Positions 43,450 through 49,187 of a stretch of DNA of 64,000 nt are shown in pieces (the first letter of the stretch is position 1; the number at the start of each line of letters is the position of its first letter). Origin of the DNA: Ferrovibrio sp. (GTDB lineage: Bacteria; Pseudomonadota; Alphaproteobacteria; Ferrovibrionales; Ferrovibrionaceae); the NCBI RefSeq assembly GCF_002796975.1, contig NZ_PEKV01000003.1, positions 14,870-78,869 of the forward strand, given 5' to 3'. The notes below the pieces were generated by a model that saw only the letters and a program-made list of their open reading frames with translations, had not been told where the DNA came from and ran no database searches. Position numbers and translations under genes: made by a program.

Positions 43450-44037
43450 CTACGGCACCGGATACCAGAATTCCTCCGCCACGCGCGACGCGACCGGGCC
43501 GCTGCCGCGGCCGTTGCCGTCGAGGAAGGTGGTGATGCCGGCGACCCAGCGCAGGCGGCCCGCTTCGTCGGTCATCGGCATGGCCACCCGTTCCATCGGG
43601 ATGGCCACGCTCCAGTGCGGCGTCAGGCTGAAAGCCTTCTGGTAATAGATCGCCGGCTTGCCCAGGATGTTATGCGACAGGGCGTTTATCAGCGGCACCA
43701 TATTGGGCGGGTAGACCTCTTCCATCGCCTTGCCCTTCGGGCTGGAGCCATACCAGTCGACCAGGTTCTGACCGACGAGATGGAAATACAGCCGGCCGTC
43801 GTCGCGCCATTCCACGATCCAGATATCGGGCAGCGCCGCAGGAAACTGCAGCGGATCCAGCGCGCGGTAGCGGGGAATGCGATGGCCGGCCGCTGCATGG
43901 AGGTCGAGCCAGTGCTGCACCATCAGGCGATGGCTGGGCAGGGTGACATCGTCGAGCAAAGTGTCCAGCGGGCGCTGCGTGGATTGTGAAATCGTCATCG
44001 CGTCGGATGAAACGCTTTTACGAGCGGGCTGGTTCAT
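43450..44037 (-). CDS. Stand-alone PAS_5-type domain protein (array copy 4)
   Basis: RPLDTLL..TLPSHR, ALDPLQFPAALPDIWIV, FHLVGQN, ERVAMP, EFWYPVP; ATGA overlap with copy 3. Confidence 0.75.
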   Translation of the reverse strand: MNQPARKSVSSDAMTISQSTQRPLDTLLDDVTLPSHRLMVQHWLDLHAAAGHRIPRYRALDPLQFPAALPDIWIVEWRDDGRLYFHLVGQNLVDWYGSSPKGKAMEEVYPPNMVPLINALSHNILGKPAIYYQKAFSLTPHWSVAIPMERVAMPMTDEAGRLRWVAGITTFLDGNGRGSGPVASRVAEEFWYPVP

Positions 44038-44597
44038 TGCGAGCCTGTGGCCTGGGCGGGCACATCCGTGACCGGGATGCGGTACTGGCGCTGGAAATCG
44101 ATGATGACGGAGTCCTGCGCGCGGTCGGGCTCGTGCCGCGAATGCACGGTGGCGCTGATGATATGCCTGGCGCGACCGCTGGCATCCGCCAGCGGCAGGC
44201 TGAGGCGCTGCAGCGCCACGGAGTAATTCCACTGCGGCAGCATGCCGCTCATGCCGTGCAGGATGGCGGCCGGCGGTCGCAGTACGGCATGCGCCATGCC
44301 GATCAGTCTTTCGCGCGTCGGCGAGGGGAGCAGATCGGTCAGCAACTTGCCGCGCACCTCGCCGCCGTAGAAATCGTTGACATGGCCGCCGGCGAGGCGG
44401 AAACGGAACACGTTGCCGCCGTCGTGATTGAGGATGCAGATATCGGGCAGATGGCGGCCGAGGCTGAGCGGGTCGATGGCGGTCACGCGCGGCAGCGCGC
44501 CACCGCCGGCGGCATGCAGCTCGAGCCAGTGCGCCGCCAGCGCCCGGTGCGAGTCCAGCGTCAGGGCATCCATCAGGCCGGCAAAGTCGTATTGCAT
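44034..44597 (-). CDS. Stand-alone PAS_5-type domain protein (array copy 3)
   Basis: AIDPLSLGRHLPDICI, FRFRLAG..V..FYG.E..GK.L, RLSLPL. Confidence 0.8.
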   Translation of the reverse strand: MQYDFAGLMDALTLDSHRALAAHWLELHAAGGGALPRVTAIDPLSLGRHLPDICILNHDGGNVFRFRLAGGHVNDFYGGEVRGKLLTDLLPSPTRERLIGMAHAVLRPPAAILHGMSGMLPQWNYSVALQRLSLPLADASGRARHIISATVHSRHEPDRAQDSVIIDFQRQYRIPVTDVPAQATGSQ

Positions 44598-44708
44598 GAC
44601 CGCCCGCCCCTCCGGATGGCTGTGATCATGTCAACTCTGGGGTGAATCCGGCAGCAGGGATAATTGAAAATTGATAACCCGCCGGCTTCCGTCTCGCTGC
44701 GGCAATTC

Positions 44709-45224
44709 TTACGGAATCGGATACCAGTATTCGCGTTCAGGCGCGGGTTCGCCGGCATCGCGGTTGAAGATCGAATTGCCGAGGATATGCACGATTCTGC
44801 CGCCGGCCTTGTCGCGCAGCGGGAAGGTCAGGCGCTCAAAGGCGCGTGGCATATGTGCGCCATCCGGCACGTTGGTATGCACGCGCTGGAATCCGGCCTG
44901 CGGCCGTTCCAGCACCCGGCGCGACTGCTGCTCCAGCACCGGCACCACATGGGCCGGGAACAGATCCTGGTAAAACAGGCCCTTCGTGTTGCGGCCGTAC
45001 CAGGCCTGCAGCGTCTCGCCCATCAGGCGGAAGCAGAAGCGGCCGTCGTCTGTCAGGTCGACGATCCAGGCATCGGGCAGCGCGCGATGGAAATGCAGCG
45101 GATCGATCTCGGCCAGTGACGGCACCGTGCCGGCCGTGGCGTATAGCTCAAGCCAGTGCCCGGCCACGGCACGATGTCCGGGCAGATCGAGATCGGCGAG
45201 CAGGGTGTCGAGCGGGCGGTCCAT
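44709..45224 (-). CDS. Stand-alone PAS_5-type domain protein (array copy 2)
   Basis: MDRPLDTLL..LPGHR, IDPLHFHRALPDAWIV, FERLTFPL, EYWYPIP. Confidence 0.78.
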   Translation of the reverse strand: MDRPLDTLLADLDLPGHRAVAGHWLELYATAGTVPSLAEIDPLHFHRALPDAWIVDLTDDGRFCFRLMGETLQAWYGRNTKGLFYQDLFPAHVVPVLEQQSRRVLERPQAGFQRVHTNVPDGAHMPRAFERLTFPLRDKAGGRIVHILGNSIFNRDAGEPAPEREYWYPIP

Positions 45225-45365
45225 GGCGGGCAGGGAAGCGGCGGGGAACGGCGAAAAAAAGTCCGCGCAGCATAACCACGCGGACCGGCGGTTCAATCCT
45301 CCCCGCGGGCGAGTCGCCGCAGGGCAGCCATGCAGAAAGCCAGACTGTGTCCGGCGTCACGTCAT

Positions 45366-45941
45366 TCAGTCAGCGGTGGCGGGCGCAGATTCGTCAGCGT
45401 GAATTTCCGCTTCCGCCACCGGATACCATTGCTCGCTTTGTATGTCGCTGCGGATCATGCCATCGCCATGGCCGTCGCGGGTCTTGTAGACGGTGACACC
45501 GAACAGGCGCCGGATGCGGCCGTCCGTGTCGGCCAGCGGCAACGCGATTCGTTCGGCCGGCACCGGCGACAGGCGATTGCGCGTCGTGCTGAGCGTATGC
45601 TGATGGCAGATGGCCGGACGGTCGATGACCTGGCGCACCATGGCGGTCACCACCGGCAGGACGGTCTGCGTATAGACCTCCTCGAAGGTCAGGCCCTTCG
45701 GGTTACTGCCATGCCAGTCGATCATGTTCTGGCCCAGCAGGTGAAAGCGGAAAATCCCGTCATCGTCCTGATCGACAATCCAGACATCGGGCAGCGCCGC
45801 GGAGAATTGCAGGGGATCGAGGCTGGACAATGCCGGCACCCGGTTGCCGGCCGCGCCGTAAAGCGCCAGCCAGTGCTGGGCCACGGCGCGGTGACCGGGC
45901 AGGGTGAGGGTTTCCAGCAGGCTGGCTAACGGACGGGTCAC
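45366..45941 (-). CDS. Stand-alone PAS_5-type domain protein (array copy 1; probable GTG start)
   Basis: RPLASLL..LPGHR, LDPLQFSAALPDVWIV, FRFHLLGQN, ERIALPL, EQWYPV. Confidence 0.75.
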   Translation of the reverse strand: MTRPLASLLETLTLPGHRAVAQHWLALYGAAGNRVPALSSLDPLQFSAALPDVWIVDQDDDGIFRFHLLGQNMIDWHGSNPKGLTFEEVYTQTVLPVVTAMVRQVIDRPAICHQHTLSTTRNRLSPVPAERIALPLADTDGRIRRLFGVTVYKTRDGHGDGMIRSDIQSEQWYPVAEAEIHADESAPATAD

Positions 45942-46061
45942 CGGCTCAGTATATCGACGGCGCGTGGTGTTGCACCGAAATAGCGCAGCCACATAGGCGA
46001 AGACTGGTCCGTCCGGGCCGAATGGCGTATGTCATGCCGGGCCAGACCAGAGGTTTTCCCC

Positions 46062-47154: not shown

Positions 47155-47185
47155 TAAAAAAGCGCCGCTGTCAGCGGCGCTTTTT
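47155..47185. terminator. Bidirectional terminator between pyrC and the PilZ gene
   Basis: aaaaaagcgccgct / agcggcgcttttt dyad, overlapping the PilZ gene stop codon. Confidence 0.8.
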
Positions 47186-47770
47186 CGTTGCGGATTTCTT
47201 CGCCGCCTTCTTTTTCACAATGGCTTTCTTCTTCGCGACGACTTTCTTCTTCGCAGCAGATTTTTTCTTCGTCGCGGTTTTTTTCGCTGCTTTCTTCCGG
47301 GCCGGCGCGGCCTTCTTTTTTGCCGGCGCCGCAGCTTTCTTCTTCGCAGCCTTTTTCTTCACGGTCTTCTTTTTGGCGGGCTGTTTCGGCGCCGGCTCCA
47401 CCACATGCGGGCGGCTGGCATTCAGCATCAGCAGCGCCATGTCATCGACTTCCACCGACAGGCGACCCAGCGTGGCGCCGCCGGCATGCAGCAGGCAATG
47501 CACACCCAGATCGCTCACCGCCTTCACCGTCGCCGGCACGGCCTTGTGTTCGCCGGCCAGCTTCAGCTTGATGCGCCCGCCGAGCGGGATATCGAGACGC
47601 GGCGCAAACAGGCAGCCTTCGAGCGACAGGTTGGTCACCATGCCGTCGACGGGCATATCATTGTAAATCAGCTGGGCGACGATATGGGTATCGCGGCGGT
47701 CGAATCTGCGGCGGTTCGCGCCATCTTTATCGCTACTGGTTTTCTCGTTTTTTTCTTTAGCGGACGCCAT
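47171..47770 (-). CDS. PilZ domain protein with histone H1-like Lys/Ala-rich C-terminal tail
   Basis: RxxxR (RRFDR) and (D/N)xSxxG (NLSLEG) motifs; the last 68 aa contain 35 Lys/Arg and no acidic residue. Confidence 0.8.
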   Translation of the reverse strand: MASAKEKNEKTSSDKDGANRRRFDRRDTHIVAQLIYNDMPVDGMVTNLSLEGCLFAPRLDIPLGGRIKLKLAGEHKAVPATVKAVSDLGVHCLLHAGGATLGRLSVEVDDMALLMLNASRPHVVEPAPKQPAKKKTVKKKAAKKKAAAPAKKKAAPARKKAAKKTATKKKSAAKKKVVAKKKAIVKKKAAKKSATKKRR

Positions 47771-47939
47771 CGACACATTCCCCTGTTGAATAGCCAACAC
47801 TACTTGCTGCTCCGGATTCTGAAAAGCCCGATTAAGGTTATAGGAGTCTGACAAAGCCATGGCGGCCAAGGGTTGGTTTCTTTAAAGTGAAGCCTCGAAC
47901 CGTCATCCCCGTAATCCACCAAGAGTCGAAATCATCGCC

Positions 47940-49187
47940 ATGTCCGCGCGGATACCGCCGGAGCCCGTTCGCTGGGCCTTGTCGCGCCATAACGCCTATC
48001 TGAACAGCCGGCCGGGCGGCGTCCGCCTGCAATGCCGCGGCGACGACTTTTCCGATCTGAAGCTGGATAGCGCCACCTTCGACGATGCCATCCTGCCGGG
48101 CTGCAGCTTCGCCAGTTCCTCGCTGCAGGACGCCCGCTTCCTGCGCGCCGACCTGTTCGGCAGCGACTTCACCCGCGCCGACCTGACCGGCACCACCTTC
48201 GAACGCGCCGATCTGCGCGGCACCAATTTCCTGATGGCGGTGCTGAAAAAGACCTCCTTCCGGCAGGCCGATCTGCGCCCGGGCCAGATCGTGCAGCATG
48301 TGAAGGATGGTGACGGCAACGCGAAGGAGAAGAAGCAGGACGTGCCGGTCAATATGTCCGGCGCCAACCTGGAAGAGGCCAATCTGGGCCATGCGCATCT
48401 GGACAAGGCCAACATGTCCAACGCCAGCGCGCTGAATGCGACCTTCGTTGGCGCCTCGCTGTTTGCCGCCAATCTGACCGGCGCCGATCTGTCGGGCGCG
48501 GATTTCTCTGGCGCCAAGCTGAAGGACACCACCTTTGTCGGCGCCAATCTGGAAGGCGCCAAGCTGGCCGGCTGCGACCTGCGCGGCGCCAACCTGCGCA
48601 GCGTCGACCTCACCAGCGTCGACCTCAGCGGCGCGATGATGGCGGGCGCGATCTATCGCGGCGCCCAGCTGCCGCCCGAGATCGAGGGCAAGCTGCTGCT
48701 GCACGGCAAGTGGATCGCCTCGAACGGCCTGAGCGGCGAACGCGCCGTCTTCACCGGCATGAAGCTGCCCGGCATCGACTTCTCCAGCTGCGACCTGCGC
48801 GCCGCGGTGTTCCACGACACCAACCTGGCCGGCGCCTATTTCACCAAGAGCCAACTGCTGTTCACCAGCTTCGTCGGCTCGGATATCCGCAAGGCGAATT
48901 TCGACCAGGCCAGCCTGGGCGGCGCCAATTTCTCCGGCGCGATCCTGCTGGGCGCGGCCTTCCGCGGCGCCCAGCTGGTCGGCGTCGAAATCTTCAATGC
49001 GCTCAACCAGCGCACCGGCAAGACGATCTTTCCGCGCTTCGACAATGCCGATCTGACCGGCGTCGATCTGCGCGGCGCGGTGGTCGAAGGCGTGGATTTC
49101 GCCAGCACAACTTTCGATAAGGTGAATATCGCCGGCACCGAACTGCGCAACTGCACCGGCATGCGTTCCGGGCATCGGCATAAGTGA
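47940..49187 (+). CDS. Pentapeptide-repeat protein, paralog 1
   Basis: Long A(D/N)LxxA-type tracts; two blocks, each opened by an H..(W/Y)...G..G.R cap. Confidence 0.9.
   Translation: MSARIPPEPVRWALSRHNAYLNSRPGGVRLQCRGDDFSDLKLDSATFDDAILPGCSFASSSLQDARFLRADLFGSDFTRADLTGTTFERADLRGTNFLMAVLKKTSFRQADLRPGQIVQHVKDGDGNAKEKKQDVPVNMSGANLEEANLGHAHLDKANMSNASALNATFVGASLFAANLTGADLSGADFSGAKLKDTTFVGANLEGAKLAGCDLRGANLRSVDLTSVDLSGAMMAGAIYRGAQLPPEIEGKLLLHGKWIASNGLSGERAVFTGMKLPGIDFSSCDLRAAVFHDTNLAGAYFTKSQLLFTSFVGSDIRKANFDQASLGGANFSGAILLGAAFRGAQLVGVEIFNALNQRTGKTIFPRFDNADLTGVDLRGAVVEGVDFASTTFDKVNIAGTELRNCTGMRSGHRHK

What the first reader, a model, noticed from the sequence alone, without database searches (positions are those of the whole stretch)
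47171..47770. PilZ domain fused to a histone H1-like tail: candidate c-di-GMP-responsive nucleoid protein
Seen: intact RxxxR and NxSxxG motifs, followed by a 68-aa tail of KKK/AAKK units with 35 basic and no acidic residues. Known: PilZ binds c-di-GMP through these motifs, and such tails bind and condense DNA in chlamydial Hc1/Hc2, Pseudomonas AlgP and mycobacterial HupB. I do not recall a characterised PilZ-H1 fusion. Inference: a second-messenger-gated DNA (or polyphosphate/RNA) binding protein linking lifestyle switching to nucleoid state.
Basis: partly seen in the sequence, partly recalled or inferred. Interest (0 to 1): 0.72.

Follow-up and report, generated by a model that had tools for sequence, protein, structure and literature searches.

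The report
PilZ sensor with movable polylysine tail
A small sensor protein for the bacterial signal c-di-GMP in the soil and water genus Ferrovibrio carries a floppy, very lysine-rich tail that probably sticks it to DNA or another negatively charged polymer.

Summary
Window 47171-47770 (minus strand) encodes a 199-aa protein with a canonical PilZ domain (Pfam above cut-off, RRxxxR and NxSxxG intact, modelled as a six-strand barrel plus helix). A disordered tail follows; its last 68 residues hold 35 K/R and no D/E.

The family is confined to Ferrovibrio. All 24 species genomes have exactly one ortholog, always divergent from a pentapeptide-repeat gene. It is the only PilZ shared by the whole genus and the only PF07238 match in this genome, which has 11 GGDEF genes.

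The 102-aa core is constant but the tail is labile. It is C-terminal in 13 species, N-terminal in 9 (up to 110 aa) and nearly absent in 2, including F. xuzhouensis KCTC 42182. Pooled tails are 42% K/R and 0.24% D/E, so charge is under selection.

Ten unrelated proteins in the same genome carry similar tails (aconitase, PurB, DapA, SpeE, PpdK, RsfS, YbeY and others). The tail therefore looks like a lineage-wide polyanion-tethering module, not proof of a purpose-built c-di-GMP-gated histone.

Best reading: a stand-alone PilZ adaptor tethered to the nucleoid, RNA or polyphosphate. I found no described precedent. It is a new variant of a known kind, and all function is untested.

The parts
47171..47770 (-). 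Complete gene, 199 codons plus TGA stop: PilZ core plus Lys/Ala tail (P0001)
   Evidence: One ortholog in each of 24 Ferrovibrio genomes.
47717..47770 (-). Residues 1-18, short mixed-charge N-terminal leader (MASAKEKNEKTSSDKDGA). In 9 other species this position holds the long basic tail.
47408..47716 (-). Residues 19-121, canonical PilZ core: six beta-strands (30-92) plus C-terminal helix (99-118)
   Evidence: Pfam PF07238. AF2 pLDDT 84-93 over the barrel. The top 32 Foldseek PDB hits are all PilZ domains.
47687..47716 (-). Residues 19-28, NRRRFDRRDT: RRxxxR c-di-GMP-binding arm
   Evidence: Invariant N19 R20 R21 F23 R25 R26 T28. Present in 24/24 orthologs.
47615..47632 (-). Residues 47-52, NLSLEG: (D/N)xSxxG c-di-GMP-binding motif
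   Evidence: Invariant N47 L48 S49 G52.
47417..47476 (-). Residues 99-118, conserved amphipathic C-terminal helix (TLGRLSVEVDDMALLMLNAS), a candidate partner-binding surface
   Evidence: AF2 helix 99-118. D109 D110 A112 L114 are invariant. The same SxDDhAALLh helix occurs in tailless outgroup PilZ proteins P0111, P0113, P0116 and P0136.
47174..47407 (-). Residues 122-199, disordered polycationic tail (33 K, 3 R, 21 A, 1 E) made of KKK-x(2-5) units and ending in KKRR
   Evidence: Composition. AF2 pLDDT 49-61 with no secondary structure. Weak 15- and 18-nt tandem repeats in the DNA.
47156..47185 (.). Bidirectional intrinsic terminator shared with the convergent amidohydrolase (pyrC-like) gene. 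Layout: A6, stem GCGCCGC (47162-47168), loop TGTCA (47169-47173), stem GCGGCGC (47174-47180), T5. The PilZ stop codon lies in the loop, and the last codons (K-R-R) form one stem arm.
   Evidence: Sequence. Terminator scan on both strands. Ortholog 3' ends.
47771..47939 (.). 169-bp divergent intergenic region between the PilZ and pentapeptide-repeat genes. In 23 genus genomes measured, the same stretch counted with both start codons is 151-210 nt (175 in this window). It holds conserved blocks (...TTTAGAGAAAC..., ...CGCCATGCTTTTGT..., ...GCTAGTGT...), presumably promoters or operators.
47940..49187 (+). 415-aa pentapeptide-repeat protein, divergent neighbour of the PilZ gene in all 24 species. 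Candidate functional partner (inference only).
   Evidence: Pfam PF00805 E=2.6e-62. Synteny in 24/24 loci. Near-neutral pI of 7.7.

Best explanation
The gene encodes a stand-alone, canonical PilZ c-di-GMP receptor. It is the one PilZ protein shared by every Ferrovibrio species and the only PF07238 match in this genome. A disordered Lys/Ala polycation makes up about 40% of its length.

Proposed mechanism:
- Shown: the conserved 102-aa core has all the sequence and fold features of a c-di-GMP-binding PilZ.
- Inferred: the core binds c-di-GMP through RRxxxR and NxSxxG and passes the signal on through its invariant surface and C-terminal helix to a protein partner, as the single-domain adaptor MapZ does.
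- Inferred from composition and from characterised H1-like tails (AlgP, PhaF, DdbA): the tail is an electrostatic tether. It keeps the receptor on a cellular polyanion, most likely chromosomal DNA, possibly RNA, ribosomes or polyphosphate. The c-di-GMP read-out, or the recruited partner, is therefore localised there.
- Shown by comparison: what matters in the tail is net positive charge and absence of acidic residues, not its sequence, length or which terminus it is on.

The tail is one instance of a tagging habit that Ferrovibrio applies to at least 10 other proteins. In this reading it is an address label, not itself the c-di-GMP-regulated DNA-condensing element.
For: PilZ identity:
- Pfam hit above cut-off.
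- Motifs invariant in the 22-member alignment and present in all 24 orthologs.
- AF2 gives a six-strand barrel plus helix with pLDDT 84-93.
- The top 32 Foldseek PDB hits are all PilZ domains: BcsA, VCA0042, PA0012 (TMt 0.67, rmsd 2.1 Å), Alg44, MapZ, MrkH, PlzA.

c-di-GMP signalling exists in this organism: 11 GGDEF genes. This is the only PF07238 match in the genome, the only one present in all 24 genus genomes, and the sole match in 10 of them.

Selection on the tail:
- A tail is present in 22/24 species even though core identity falls to 48%.
- It is C-terminal in 13 species and N-terminal in 9, with at least 2 switches on the core tree.
- Pooled tails total 1264 residues, 42% K/R and only 3 D/E (0.24%), against 9.9% D/E in the cores. 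This holds in a 64% GC genome, where Lys codons run against the compositional bias.
- N-tail start codons are supported by strong AAGGAG sites and a constant intergenic distance to the neighbour gene.

Address-label reading: similar tails sit on aconitase, PurB, DapA, SpeE, PpdK, a PNP-family phosphorylase, YbeY, RsfS, CarD and a TfoX_N protein.

Known functions of such tails:
- AlgP associates with polyP granules (PMC9239181).
- The PhaF disordered region binds RNA (PMC12818456).
- The DdbA H1-like domain binds and condenses DNA and is fused to a DksA-like regulator (PMC3643593).
Against:
- Two species, F. xuzhouensis KCTC 42182 and one MAG, do without the tail while keeping the core and the RsfS tail. 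The tail is therefore dispensable at least there.
- Net tail charge runs from about +8 to +39 as a continuum, which fits loose constraint.
- No partner is identified. The conserved pentapeptide-repeat neighbour is only a synteny hint.
- DNA, RNA, polyP and anionic membrane cannot be told apart from sequence.
Confidence: 0.45

Rival explanations
1. One reading: a c-di-GMP-gated nucleoid-associated protein. Ligand binding to the PilZ core switches the tail's DNA (or polyP/RNA) binding on or off, so that c-di-GMP directly changes nucleoid compaction.
For: - The tail can sit directly before the RRxxxR arm (N-tail species) or directly after the C-terminal helix. From memory of the PA4608/MapZ NMR work (Habazettl 2011, listed in the references seen), these are the two segments that rearrange on ligand binding. 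Gating is therefore sterically conceivable from either end.
- There are precedents for c-di-GMP controlling nucleic-acid binding: PlzA, which requires c-di-GMP, and CdbA, where binding is mutually exclusive (abstracts).
- It is the sole or universal PilZ of the genus.
Against: - A 16-102-aa featureless polycation should bind polyanions regardless of a roughly 100-aa domain at its end, and no autoinhibitory acidic patch is evident (the leader plus core, residues 1-121, has pI 8.7).
- The same tails sit on enzymes for which no gating is expected.
- Two species lack the tail.
- Tail length and charge are not conserved, which is unexpected for a calibrated switch.
Confidence: 0.15
2. Generic appendage: the tail is a lineage-wide low-complexity expansion produced by repeat slippage. 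It is tolerated or mildly useful (for example for solubility or general nucleoid hitch-hiking) on many Ferrovibrio proteins and has no role specific to c-di-GMP signalling.
For: - Ten other unrelated proteins in the genome carry such tails.
- The DNA shows weak 15- and 18-nt tandem repeats.
- Length varies from 16 to 102 aa, the tail flips termini, and it is lost in two species.
- Tailless outgroup PilZ proteins have the same core helix.
Against: - Acidic residues are almost completely excluded (3 in 1264), and Lys content stays at 29-56% against GC pressure across deep divergence. This shows purifying selection on charge.
- The tail was rebuilt at the other terminus rather than simply lost.
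- The PilZ tail is among the two most lysine-dense in the genome.
- RsfS keeps its tail at one fixed terminus in 23/23 species, so tails are not randomly gained and lost.
Confidence: 0.2
3. PilZ and pentapeptide-repeat protein form a module. The PilZ core binds the divergently encoded pentapeptide-repeat protein in a c-di-GMP-dependent way. Such proteins form a beta-helix, and some family members are DNA mimics acting on gyrase. The tail would place the complex on DNA and so link c-di-GMP to DNA topology.
For: - The divergent gene pair is conserved in 24/24 species, across the whole depth of the genus. The intergenic region, start codon to start codon inclusive, is 151-210 nt in the 23 species measured and holds conserved sequence blocks.
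- The neighbour is a bona fide pentapeptide-repeat protein with repeat-level similarity to MfpA and Qnr.
Against: - Synteny alone is weak evidence.
- The repeat proteins are near-neutral (pI 6.4-7.7), unlike acidic DNA mimics (the acidity of MfpA and Qnr is from memory).
- Similarity to MfpA and Qnr is only the generic repeat.
- A tailless distant PilZ relative, P0111, has no such neighbour.
Confidence: 0.1
4. Membrane tether: the polybasic tail binds anionic phospholipids and places the PilZ receptor at the inner membrane, for example near flagellar or secretion machinery.
For: Polybasic stretches can bind acidic lipids (general knowledge). Many PilZ outputs are membrane-associated machines.
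Against: - The tail has no hydrophobic or aromatic anchor residues and is not predicted to be amphipathic.
- The same tails sit on cytoplasmic enzymes and ribosome factors.
- No membrane machinery genes lie nearby.
Confidence: 0.05

Closest known systems
MapZ / PA4608 (Pseudomonas aeruginosa), single-domain PilZ adaptor
   Same: Stand-alone canonical PilZ: a six-strand barrel followed by a C-terminal helix, with RRxxxR and DxSxxG motifs. It is a structural match in Foldseek (1ywu, 5xly_B, 5y4r). It acts by binding a partner protein (CheR1) when loaded with c-di-GMP.
   Different: MapZ is about 125 aa and has no polycationic extension. No sequence-level similarity was detected. The partner of the Ferrovibrio protein is unknown.
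PlzA (Borrelia burgdorferi)
   Same: [quoted passage not shown] It is a weak Foldseek hit (7mie). The Ferrovibrio protein is likewise the sole or universal PilZ of its genus.
   Different: PlzA is a two-domain xPilZ-PilZ protein of about 260 aa, and its nucleic-acid binding resides in folded domains (domain architecture and binding site from memory). It has no low-complexity Lys tail.
MrkH (Klebsiella pneumoniae)
   Same: A PilZ-containing protein that binds DNA when loaded with c-di-GMP. It is a structural hit (5kgo, 5ejl).
   Different: MrkH is a sequence-specific transcription activator with an extra N-terminal PilZ-like domain. It has no disordered polycation.
CdbA and CdbS (Myxococcus xanthus)
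   Same: They link c-di-GMP to nucleoid organisation, and CdbS is a stand-alone PilZ protein (PMC7156744, PMC10313047).
   Different: DNA binding is by CdbA, a ribbon-helix-helix protein and not a PilZ. CdbS acts through chaperones and has no reported H1-like tail.
DdbA (Streptomyces coelicolor)
   Same: The same design logic: a histone H1-like DNA-binding region fused to a small regulator belonging to a nucleotide second-messenger pathway (a DksA-like domain, ppGpp). Its H1-like part was shown to bind and condense DNA (PMC3643593).
   Different: A different messenger system and a different folded domain. The tail is N-terminal only.
H1-like tails of AlgP and PhaF (Pseudomonas), Hc2 (Chlamydia), Burkholderia H1-like protein, HupB (mycobacteria)
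   Same: Lys/Ala/Pro-rich, acid-free, disordered repeats. Length varies through repeat-number changes, as in Hc2 (PMC2848022). Known ligands are DNA, polyP granules (AlgP, PMC9239181) and RNA (PhaF, PMC12818456); all papers listed.
   Different: There is no homology. HC2 PF07382 scores 11.3 bits against a cut-off of 40, and NF038053 scores 16.1 against 80. Here the tail is attached to a PilZ domain.

Membership tests
PilZ domain (Pfam PF07238), canonical c-di-GMP-binding type | Profile HMM score above the curated gathering threshold | tested here: met
   28.1 bits against a cut-off of 22.5, E=2.6e-6, residues 19-92. The six-frame search gives 29.9 bits.
PilZ domain (Pfam PF07238), canonical c-di-GMP-binding type | N-terminal RxxxR (RRxxxR) motif | tested here: met
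   N19-RRRFDRR-D27. R20, R21, R25 and R26 are invariant in 22 aligned members, and the motif is in 24/24 orthologs.
PilZ domain (Pfam PF07238), canonical c-di-GMP-binding type | (D/N)xSxxG motif | tested here: met
   N47-L-S49-L-E-G52, with N47, S49 and G52 invariant.
PilZ domain (Pfam PF07238), canonical c-di-GMP-binding type | [quoted passage not shown] | tested here: met
   The AF2 model has strands 30-36, 39-49, 52-56, 66-71, 78-85 and 90-92 and helix 99-118, with pLDDT 84-93 over the barrel. The top 32 Foldseek PDB hits are PilZ domains.
PilZ domain (Pfam PF07238), canonical c-di-GMP-binding type | Binds c-di-GMP | not testable with these tools
   Needs ITC, DRaCALA or MST on purified protein.
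Hc2 histone H1-like nucleoprotein (Pfam PF07382; NCBIfam NF038052) | Profile HMM score above cut-off | tested here: not met
   PF07382 scores 11.3 bits against 40 (E=0.38). NF038052 scores 10 bits against 135.
Burkholderia-type histone H1-like DNA-binding protein (NCBIfam NF038053) | Profile HMM score above cut-off | tested here: not met
   16.1 bits against a cut-off of 80. The similarity is compositional only.
Bacterial H1-like polycationic tails (functional class, not a homologous family) | Long, acid-free, Lys/Ala-rich, intrinsically disordered segment | tested here: met
   78 aa with 33 K, 3 R, 21 A and 1 E. pLDDT is 49-61 with no secondary structure.
Nucleoid-associated protein | Binds chromosomal DNA in vivo, co-localises with the nucleoid and alters its compaction | not testable with these tools
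   Needs EMSA, microscopy or ChIP.

The most novel reading that the evidence does not exclude
The PilZ-polycation fusion is a c-di-GMP-operated electrostatic switch. The tail always abuts one of the two segments that rearrange on ligand binding (the RRxxxR arm or the C-terminal helix). c-di-GMP loading would therefore change how much of the tail is free to bind DNA or polyphosphate, coupling the lifestyle messenger directly to nucleoid or polyanion-condensate state. Ferrovibrio may more generally use H1-like tails as an address label that gathers a defined set of at least 11 proteins on that polyanion, including its only universal PilZ receptor. Another note of this scan reports an apparently independent PilZ-polylysine fusion in a Bdellovibrionota genus. 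I did not check that note; if it holds, the architecture would be convergent.
Probability: 0.15. Interest if true: 0.8.

Novelty: new variant of a known kind. Interest (0 to 1): 0.5.

Why it matters
PilZ proteins are the commonest c-di-GMP receptors. For most stand-alone PilZ proteins, the output and the place in the cell where it acts are unknown. This one is the only universal PilZ of its genus, and it is physically joined to a module whose characterised relatives bind DNA, RNA or polyphosphate.

If the tail does tether the receptor, it would be a simple example of spatial addressing of second-messenger signalling by a disordered polycation. It would also be a second route, besides PlzA, MrkH and CdbA, from c-di-GMP to the nucleoid.

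Nature has already done the key experiments:
- tail at the C-terminus;
- tail at the N-terminus;
- no tail, in a cultured type strain.

Function can therefore be tested by comparison and by swapping between species.

The wider observation may be the more general lead about how this lineage organises its cytoplasm. A whole set of housekeeping proteins in Ferrovibrio carries the same kind of tail.

Tried and rejected
- Longer ORF from TTG at 47869 (232 aa): rejected. The upstream frame is closed by stop codons in close orthologs, and the ATG at 47770 has the conserved ribosome-binding site.
- Homology of the tail to Hc2 or Burkholderia H1-like proteins: rejected, far below cut-offs.
- Sequence search of the core against PDB chains: no PilZ hit, only noise with E of 0.28 or worse. 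Only the fold search recognised PilZ structures.
- Family or architecture beyond the genus: nothing found in three searches.
  - A profile search of 1.84 billion representatives gave 7 family clusters, and the nearest outsiders are tailless.
  - The GTDB contig scan gave only Ferrovibrio records.
  - A PF07238 scan of 120 other alphaproteobacterial genera gave 20 small PilZ genes, which I fetched and read; none had a Lys-rich tail.
- Genome-wide loss of tails as the explanation for the two tailless species: rejected. RsfS keeps its basic N-tail in 23/23 species, including those two.
- Pentapeptide-repeat neighbour as an acidic DNA mimic matching the basic tail: not supported by charge (pI 6.4-7.7). 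It is kept only as a low-probability rival.
- Conserved neighbour for a distant tailless relative (P0111): no pentapeptide-repeat gene there.
- C53/C92 as a metal or redox site: considered. The C/C to F/G co-variation in four species is equally explained by volume compensation in the barrel core, so I make no claim.
- Habazettl 2011 (PA4608 NMR) could not be read. The statement about rearranging termini is from memory.

Full report
**1. Observation**

The minus-strand ORF 47171-47770 translates cleanly to 199 aa. Pfam places a PilZ domain at residues 19-92, above the gathering threshold (28.1 bits against 22.5).

The two ligand motifs are N19-RRRFDRR-DT28 (RRxxxR) and N47-LSLE-G52. Both are invariant in an alignment of 22 family members and present in all 24 genus orthologs.

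The whole segment after ...NASRP (78 aa) has 36 K/R and 1 E. The protein has net charge +37 and pI 10.6.

The shorter ATG start is the real one. It has a conserved AGGGGA ribosome-binding site, and the upstream frame is closed by stop codons in close relatives.

The gene ends in a bidirectional terminator shared with the convergent amidohydrolase (pyrC-like) gene. The hairpin spans 47162-47180, flanked by A6 and T5. The stop codon lies in the loop, and the final K-R-R codons form one stem arm.

**2. Structure**

AlphaFold2, run on a 22-sequence alignment, gives six beta-strands (30-92) and a helix (99-118), with block-mean pLDDT of 84-93 across residues 31-90. The tail has pLDDT 49-61 and no secondary structure. 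This matches the published definition of a canonical PilZ, a six-stranded barrel followed by a helix (10.1101/814665).

The top 32 Foldseek hits in the PDB are all PilZ domains: BcsA, VCA0042, PA0012 (TMt 0.67, rmsd 2.1 Å), Alg44, MapZ/PA4608, MrkH and PlzA. E-values are modest because the query carries about 80 disordered residues. Sequence search against PDB chains found nothing relevant.

**3. Organism and distribution**

Database homologs are named Ferrovibrio sp. or Alphaproteobacteria MAG. A scan of one genome per GTDB species returned 17 loci. Most records are titled Ferrovibrio (F. terrae MAGs, F. xuzhouensis KCTC 42182, Ferrovibrio sp.). The rest carry generic MAG labels, and at least three of those four sit on the same contigs as genus genomes found earlier.

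A whole-genome search found exactly one ortholog in each of the 24 genomes of the genus and none in 17 other alphaproteobacterial genomes. A profile search of 1.84 billion cluster representatives found only 7 clusters below 1e-30. The next hits are tailless stand-alone PilZ proteins of 82-122 aa that share the C-terminal SxDDhAALLh helix.

PF07238 matches only this gene in the window's genome, although 11 GGDEF genes are present. Across the genus there are 1-3 PilZ matches per genome. This is the only one present in all 24, and the only match in 10 of them. It is therefore the core PilZ receptor of Ferrovibrio.

**4. The tail in orthologs**

The core between NRRRF and ...A(S/G)R is 102 aa in 21 of the 24 species (101 in two, 107 in one). 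The basic extension is not constant:
- C-terminal in 13 species, including this one.
- N-terminal in 9 species, up to 110 aa with 39 K/R. These starts are supported by strong AAGGAG sites and an unchanged distance to the divergent neighbour gene.
- Nearly absent in 2 species, one of which is the cultured type strain F. xuzhouensis KCTC 42182.

A maximum-likelihood tree of the cores needs at least two switches of tail position.

Pooled over the 22 tail-bearing orthologs, the tails total 1264 residues. They are 42% K/R, with 3 acidic residues (0.24%), against 9.9% acidic in the cores. Tail DNA is 54% GC in a 64% GC genome, and a single A-to-G change turns a Lys codon into Glu. This pattern therefore shows selection on charge, not on sequence, length or terminus. 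Weak 15- and 18-nt tandem repeats in the tail DNA suggest growth and shrinkage by slippage, as described for Hc2 (PMC2848022).

**5. The tail is not unique to PilZ**

I ran a six-frame census of the window's genome for 40-residue windows with at least 12 K and at most 1 D/E. It found 11 ORFs. Pfam confirms the other ten as:
- aconitase (a basic window of about 125 aa in the N-terminal region)
- adenylosuccinate lyase
- a PNP-family phosphorylase
- DapA
- YbeY
- spermidine synthase
- CarD
- RsfS
- pyruvate phosphate dikinase
- a TfoX_N protein lying just downstream of a GGDEF gene

RsfS keeps its N-terminal tail in 23/23 species, including the two whose PilZ is tailless. Loss of the PilZ tail is therefore gene-specific, and tails are not shuffled at random. 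Still, the tail is a habit of this genome, and the RsfS tails show the same habit across the genus. This weakens the idea that the PilZ fusion is a purpose-built c-di-GMP-gated histone.

In a sample of 120 other alphaproteobacterial genera, none of the 20 small PilZ genes I fetched had such a tail.

**6. Context**

In all 24 species the gene is divergently paired with a pentapeptide-repeat gene of about 415 aa. The intergenic region, measured start codon to start codon inclusive, is 151-210 nt in the 23 species measured. It contains conserved blocks. The pyrC-like neighbour is conserved only in the close clade.

The repeat proteins are near-neutral in charge and resemble MfpA and Qnr only at the level of the generic repeat. 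A distant tailless relative has no such neighbour. The pairing is a lead for a partner, nothing more.

**7. Mechanism**

What is shown:
- a canonical PilZ core with intact ligand motifs;
- a disordered, acid-free polycation under selection for charge;
- independence of that selection from which terminus carries the tail;
- universality of the gene in the genus.

What is inferred:
- c-di-GMP binding;
- signalling through the invariant surface and C-terminal helix to a partner, as in MapZ;
- polyanion tethering by the tail, as in AlgP (polyP), PhaF (RNA) and DdbA (DNA).

The switch model is not excluded. The tail always abuts either the RRxxxR arm or the C-terminal helix. From memory of the PA4608 NMR study, whose paper could not be read here, these are the segments that move on ligand binding.

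**8. Novelty**

Full-text searches for PilZ together with "histone H1-like", or with "lysine-rich" and "nucleoid", found no description of such a fusion. The PilZ domain review mentions neither lysine, histone nor disorder. Public records call the protein only "PilZ domain-containing protein" or "hypothetical protein".

The closest concepts are PlzA, MrkH, CdbA/CdbS and DdbA. I file the finding as a new variant of a known kind.

Two earlier notes of this scan bear on it, and I did not check either. One reports a similar PilZ-polylysine protein in a Bdellovibrionota genus. The other reports an N-tailed PilZ that shares short sequence words with this protein.

**9. Limits**

There are no experimental data of any kind. 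Only the window's own genome could be scanned proteome-wide.

Noticed in passing
Own genome G000: contigs C9, C13, C17, C22, C30, C34 (three ORFs) and C35 (coordinates): Ten other proteins carry acid-free Lys/Ala tails: aconitase (about 125 aa, N-terminal region, 40 K), PurB, a PNP-family phosphorylase, DapA, YbeY, SpeE, CarD, RsfS, PpdK and a TfoX_N protein. This looks like a genome-wide tagging habit in Ferrovibrio. A similar tail on aconitase was noted elsewhere in this scan, in a Zixibacteria-like genome (e1-5046516).
   Followed up: partly
Own genome G000:C9:348739-349203 (GGDEF) and the ORF starting near C9:349356 (+): The TfoX_N-domain protein with a Lys-rich C-terminal tail lies directly downstream of a GGDEF gene. 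This is a second place where c-di-GMP machinery and an H1-like tail meet in this genome.
   Followed up: no
window 47771-47939 and 47940-49187 (+): The PilZ gene and the first of three tandem pentapeptide-repeat genes form a divergent pair conserved in all 24 Ferrovibrio species. Conserved intergenic blocks include TTTAGAGAAAC, CGCCATGCTTTTGT and GCTAGTGT.
   Followed up: partly
window 47156-47185: A bidirectional terminator lies between the convergent pyrC-like and PilZ genes. The PilZ stop codon sits in the hairpin loop, and the terminal K-R-R codons form one stem arm. The KKRR ending is nevertheless conserved in orthologs that lack the hairpin.
   Followed up: yes
window 47611-47613 (C53) and 47494-47496 (C92) of the PilZ gene; loci L019, L020, L022, L023: Cys53 and Cys92 co-vary across the genus: both are Cys in 20 species and they become Phe and Gly together in 4 species. 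This may be volume compensation in the barrel core, or a Cys pair of unknown role next to the conserved H91 and H95.
   Followed up: no
loci L025-L047 (RsfS genes of 23 Ferrovibrio genomes): The ribosome silencing factor RsfS has an N-terminal Lys/Ala/Thr-rich extension in every species checked. The open frame upstream of the core holds 12-34 K and always sits at the same terminus.
   Followed up: partly
window 43450-45992, minus strand: Tandem output-less PAS_5 (PF07310) proteins lie just beyond the pyrC-like gene. One (45366-45992) was confirmed by Pfam. They are the subject of another first-stage note.
   Followed up: no
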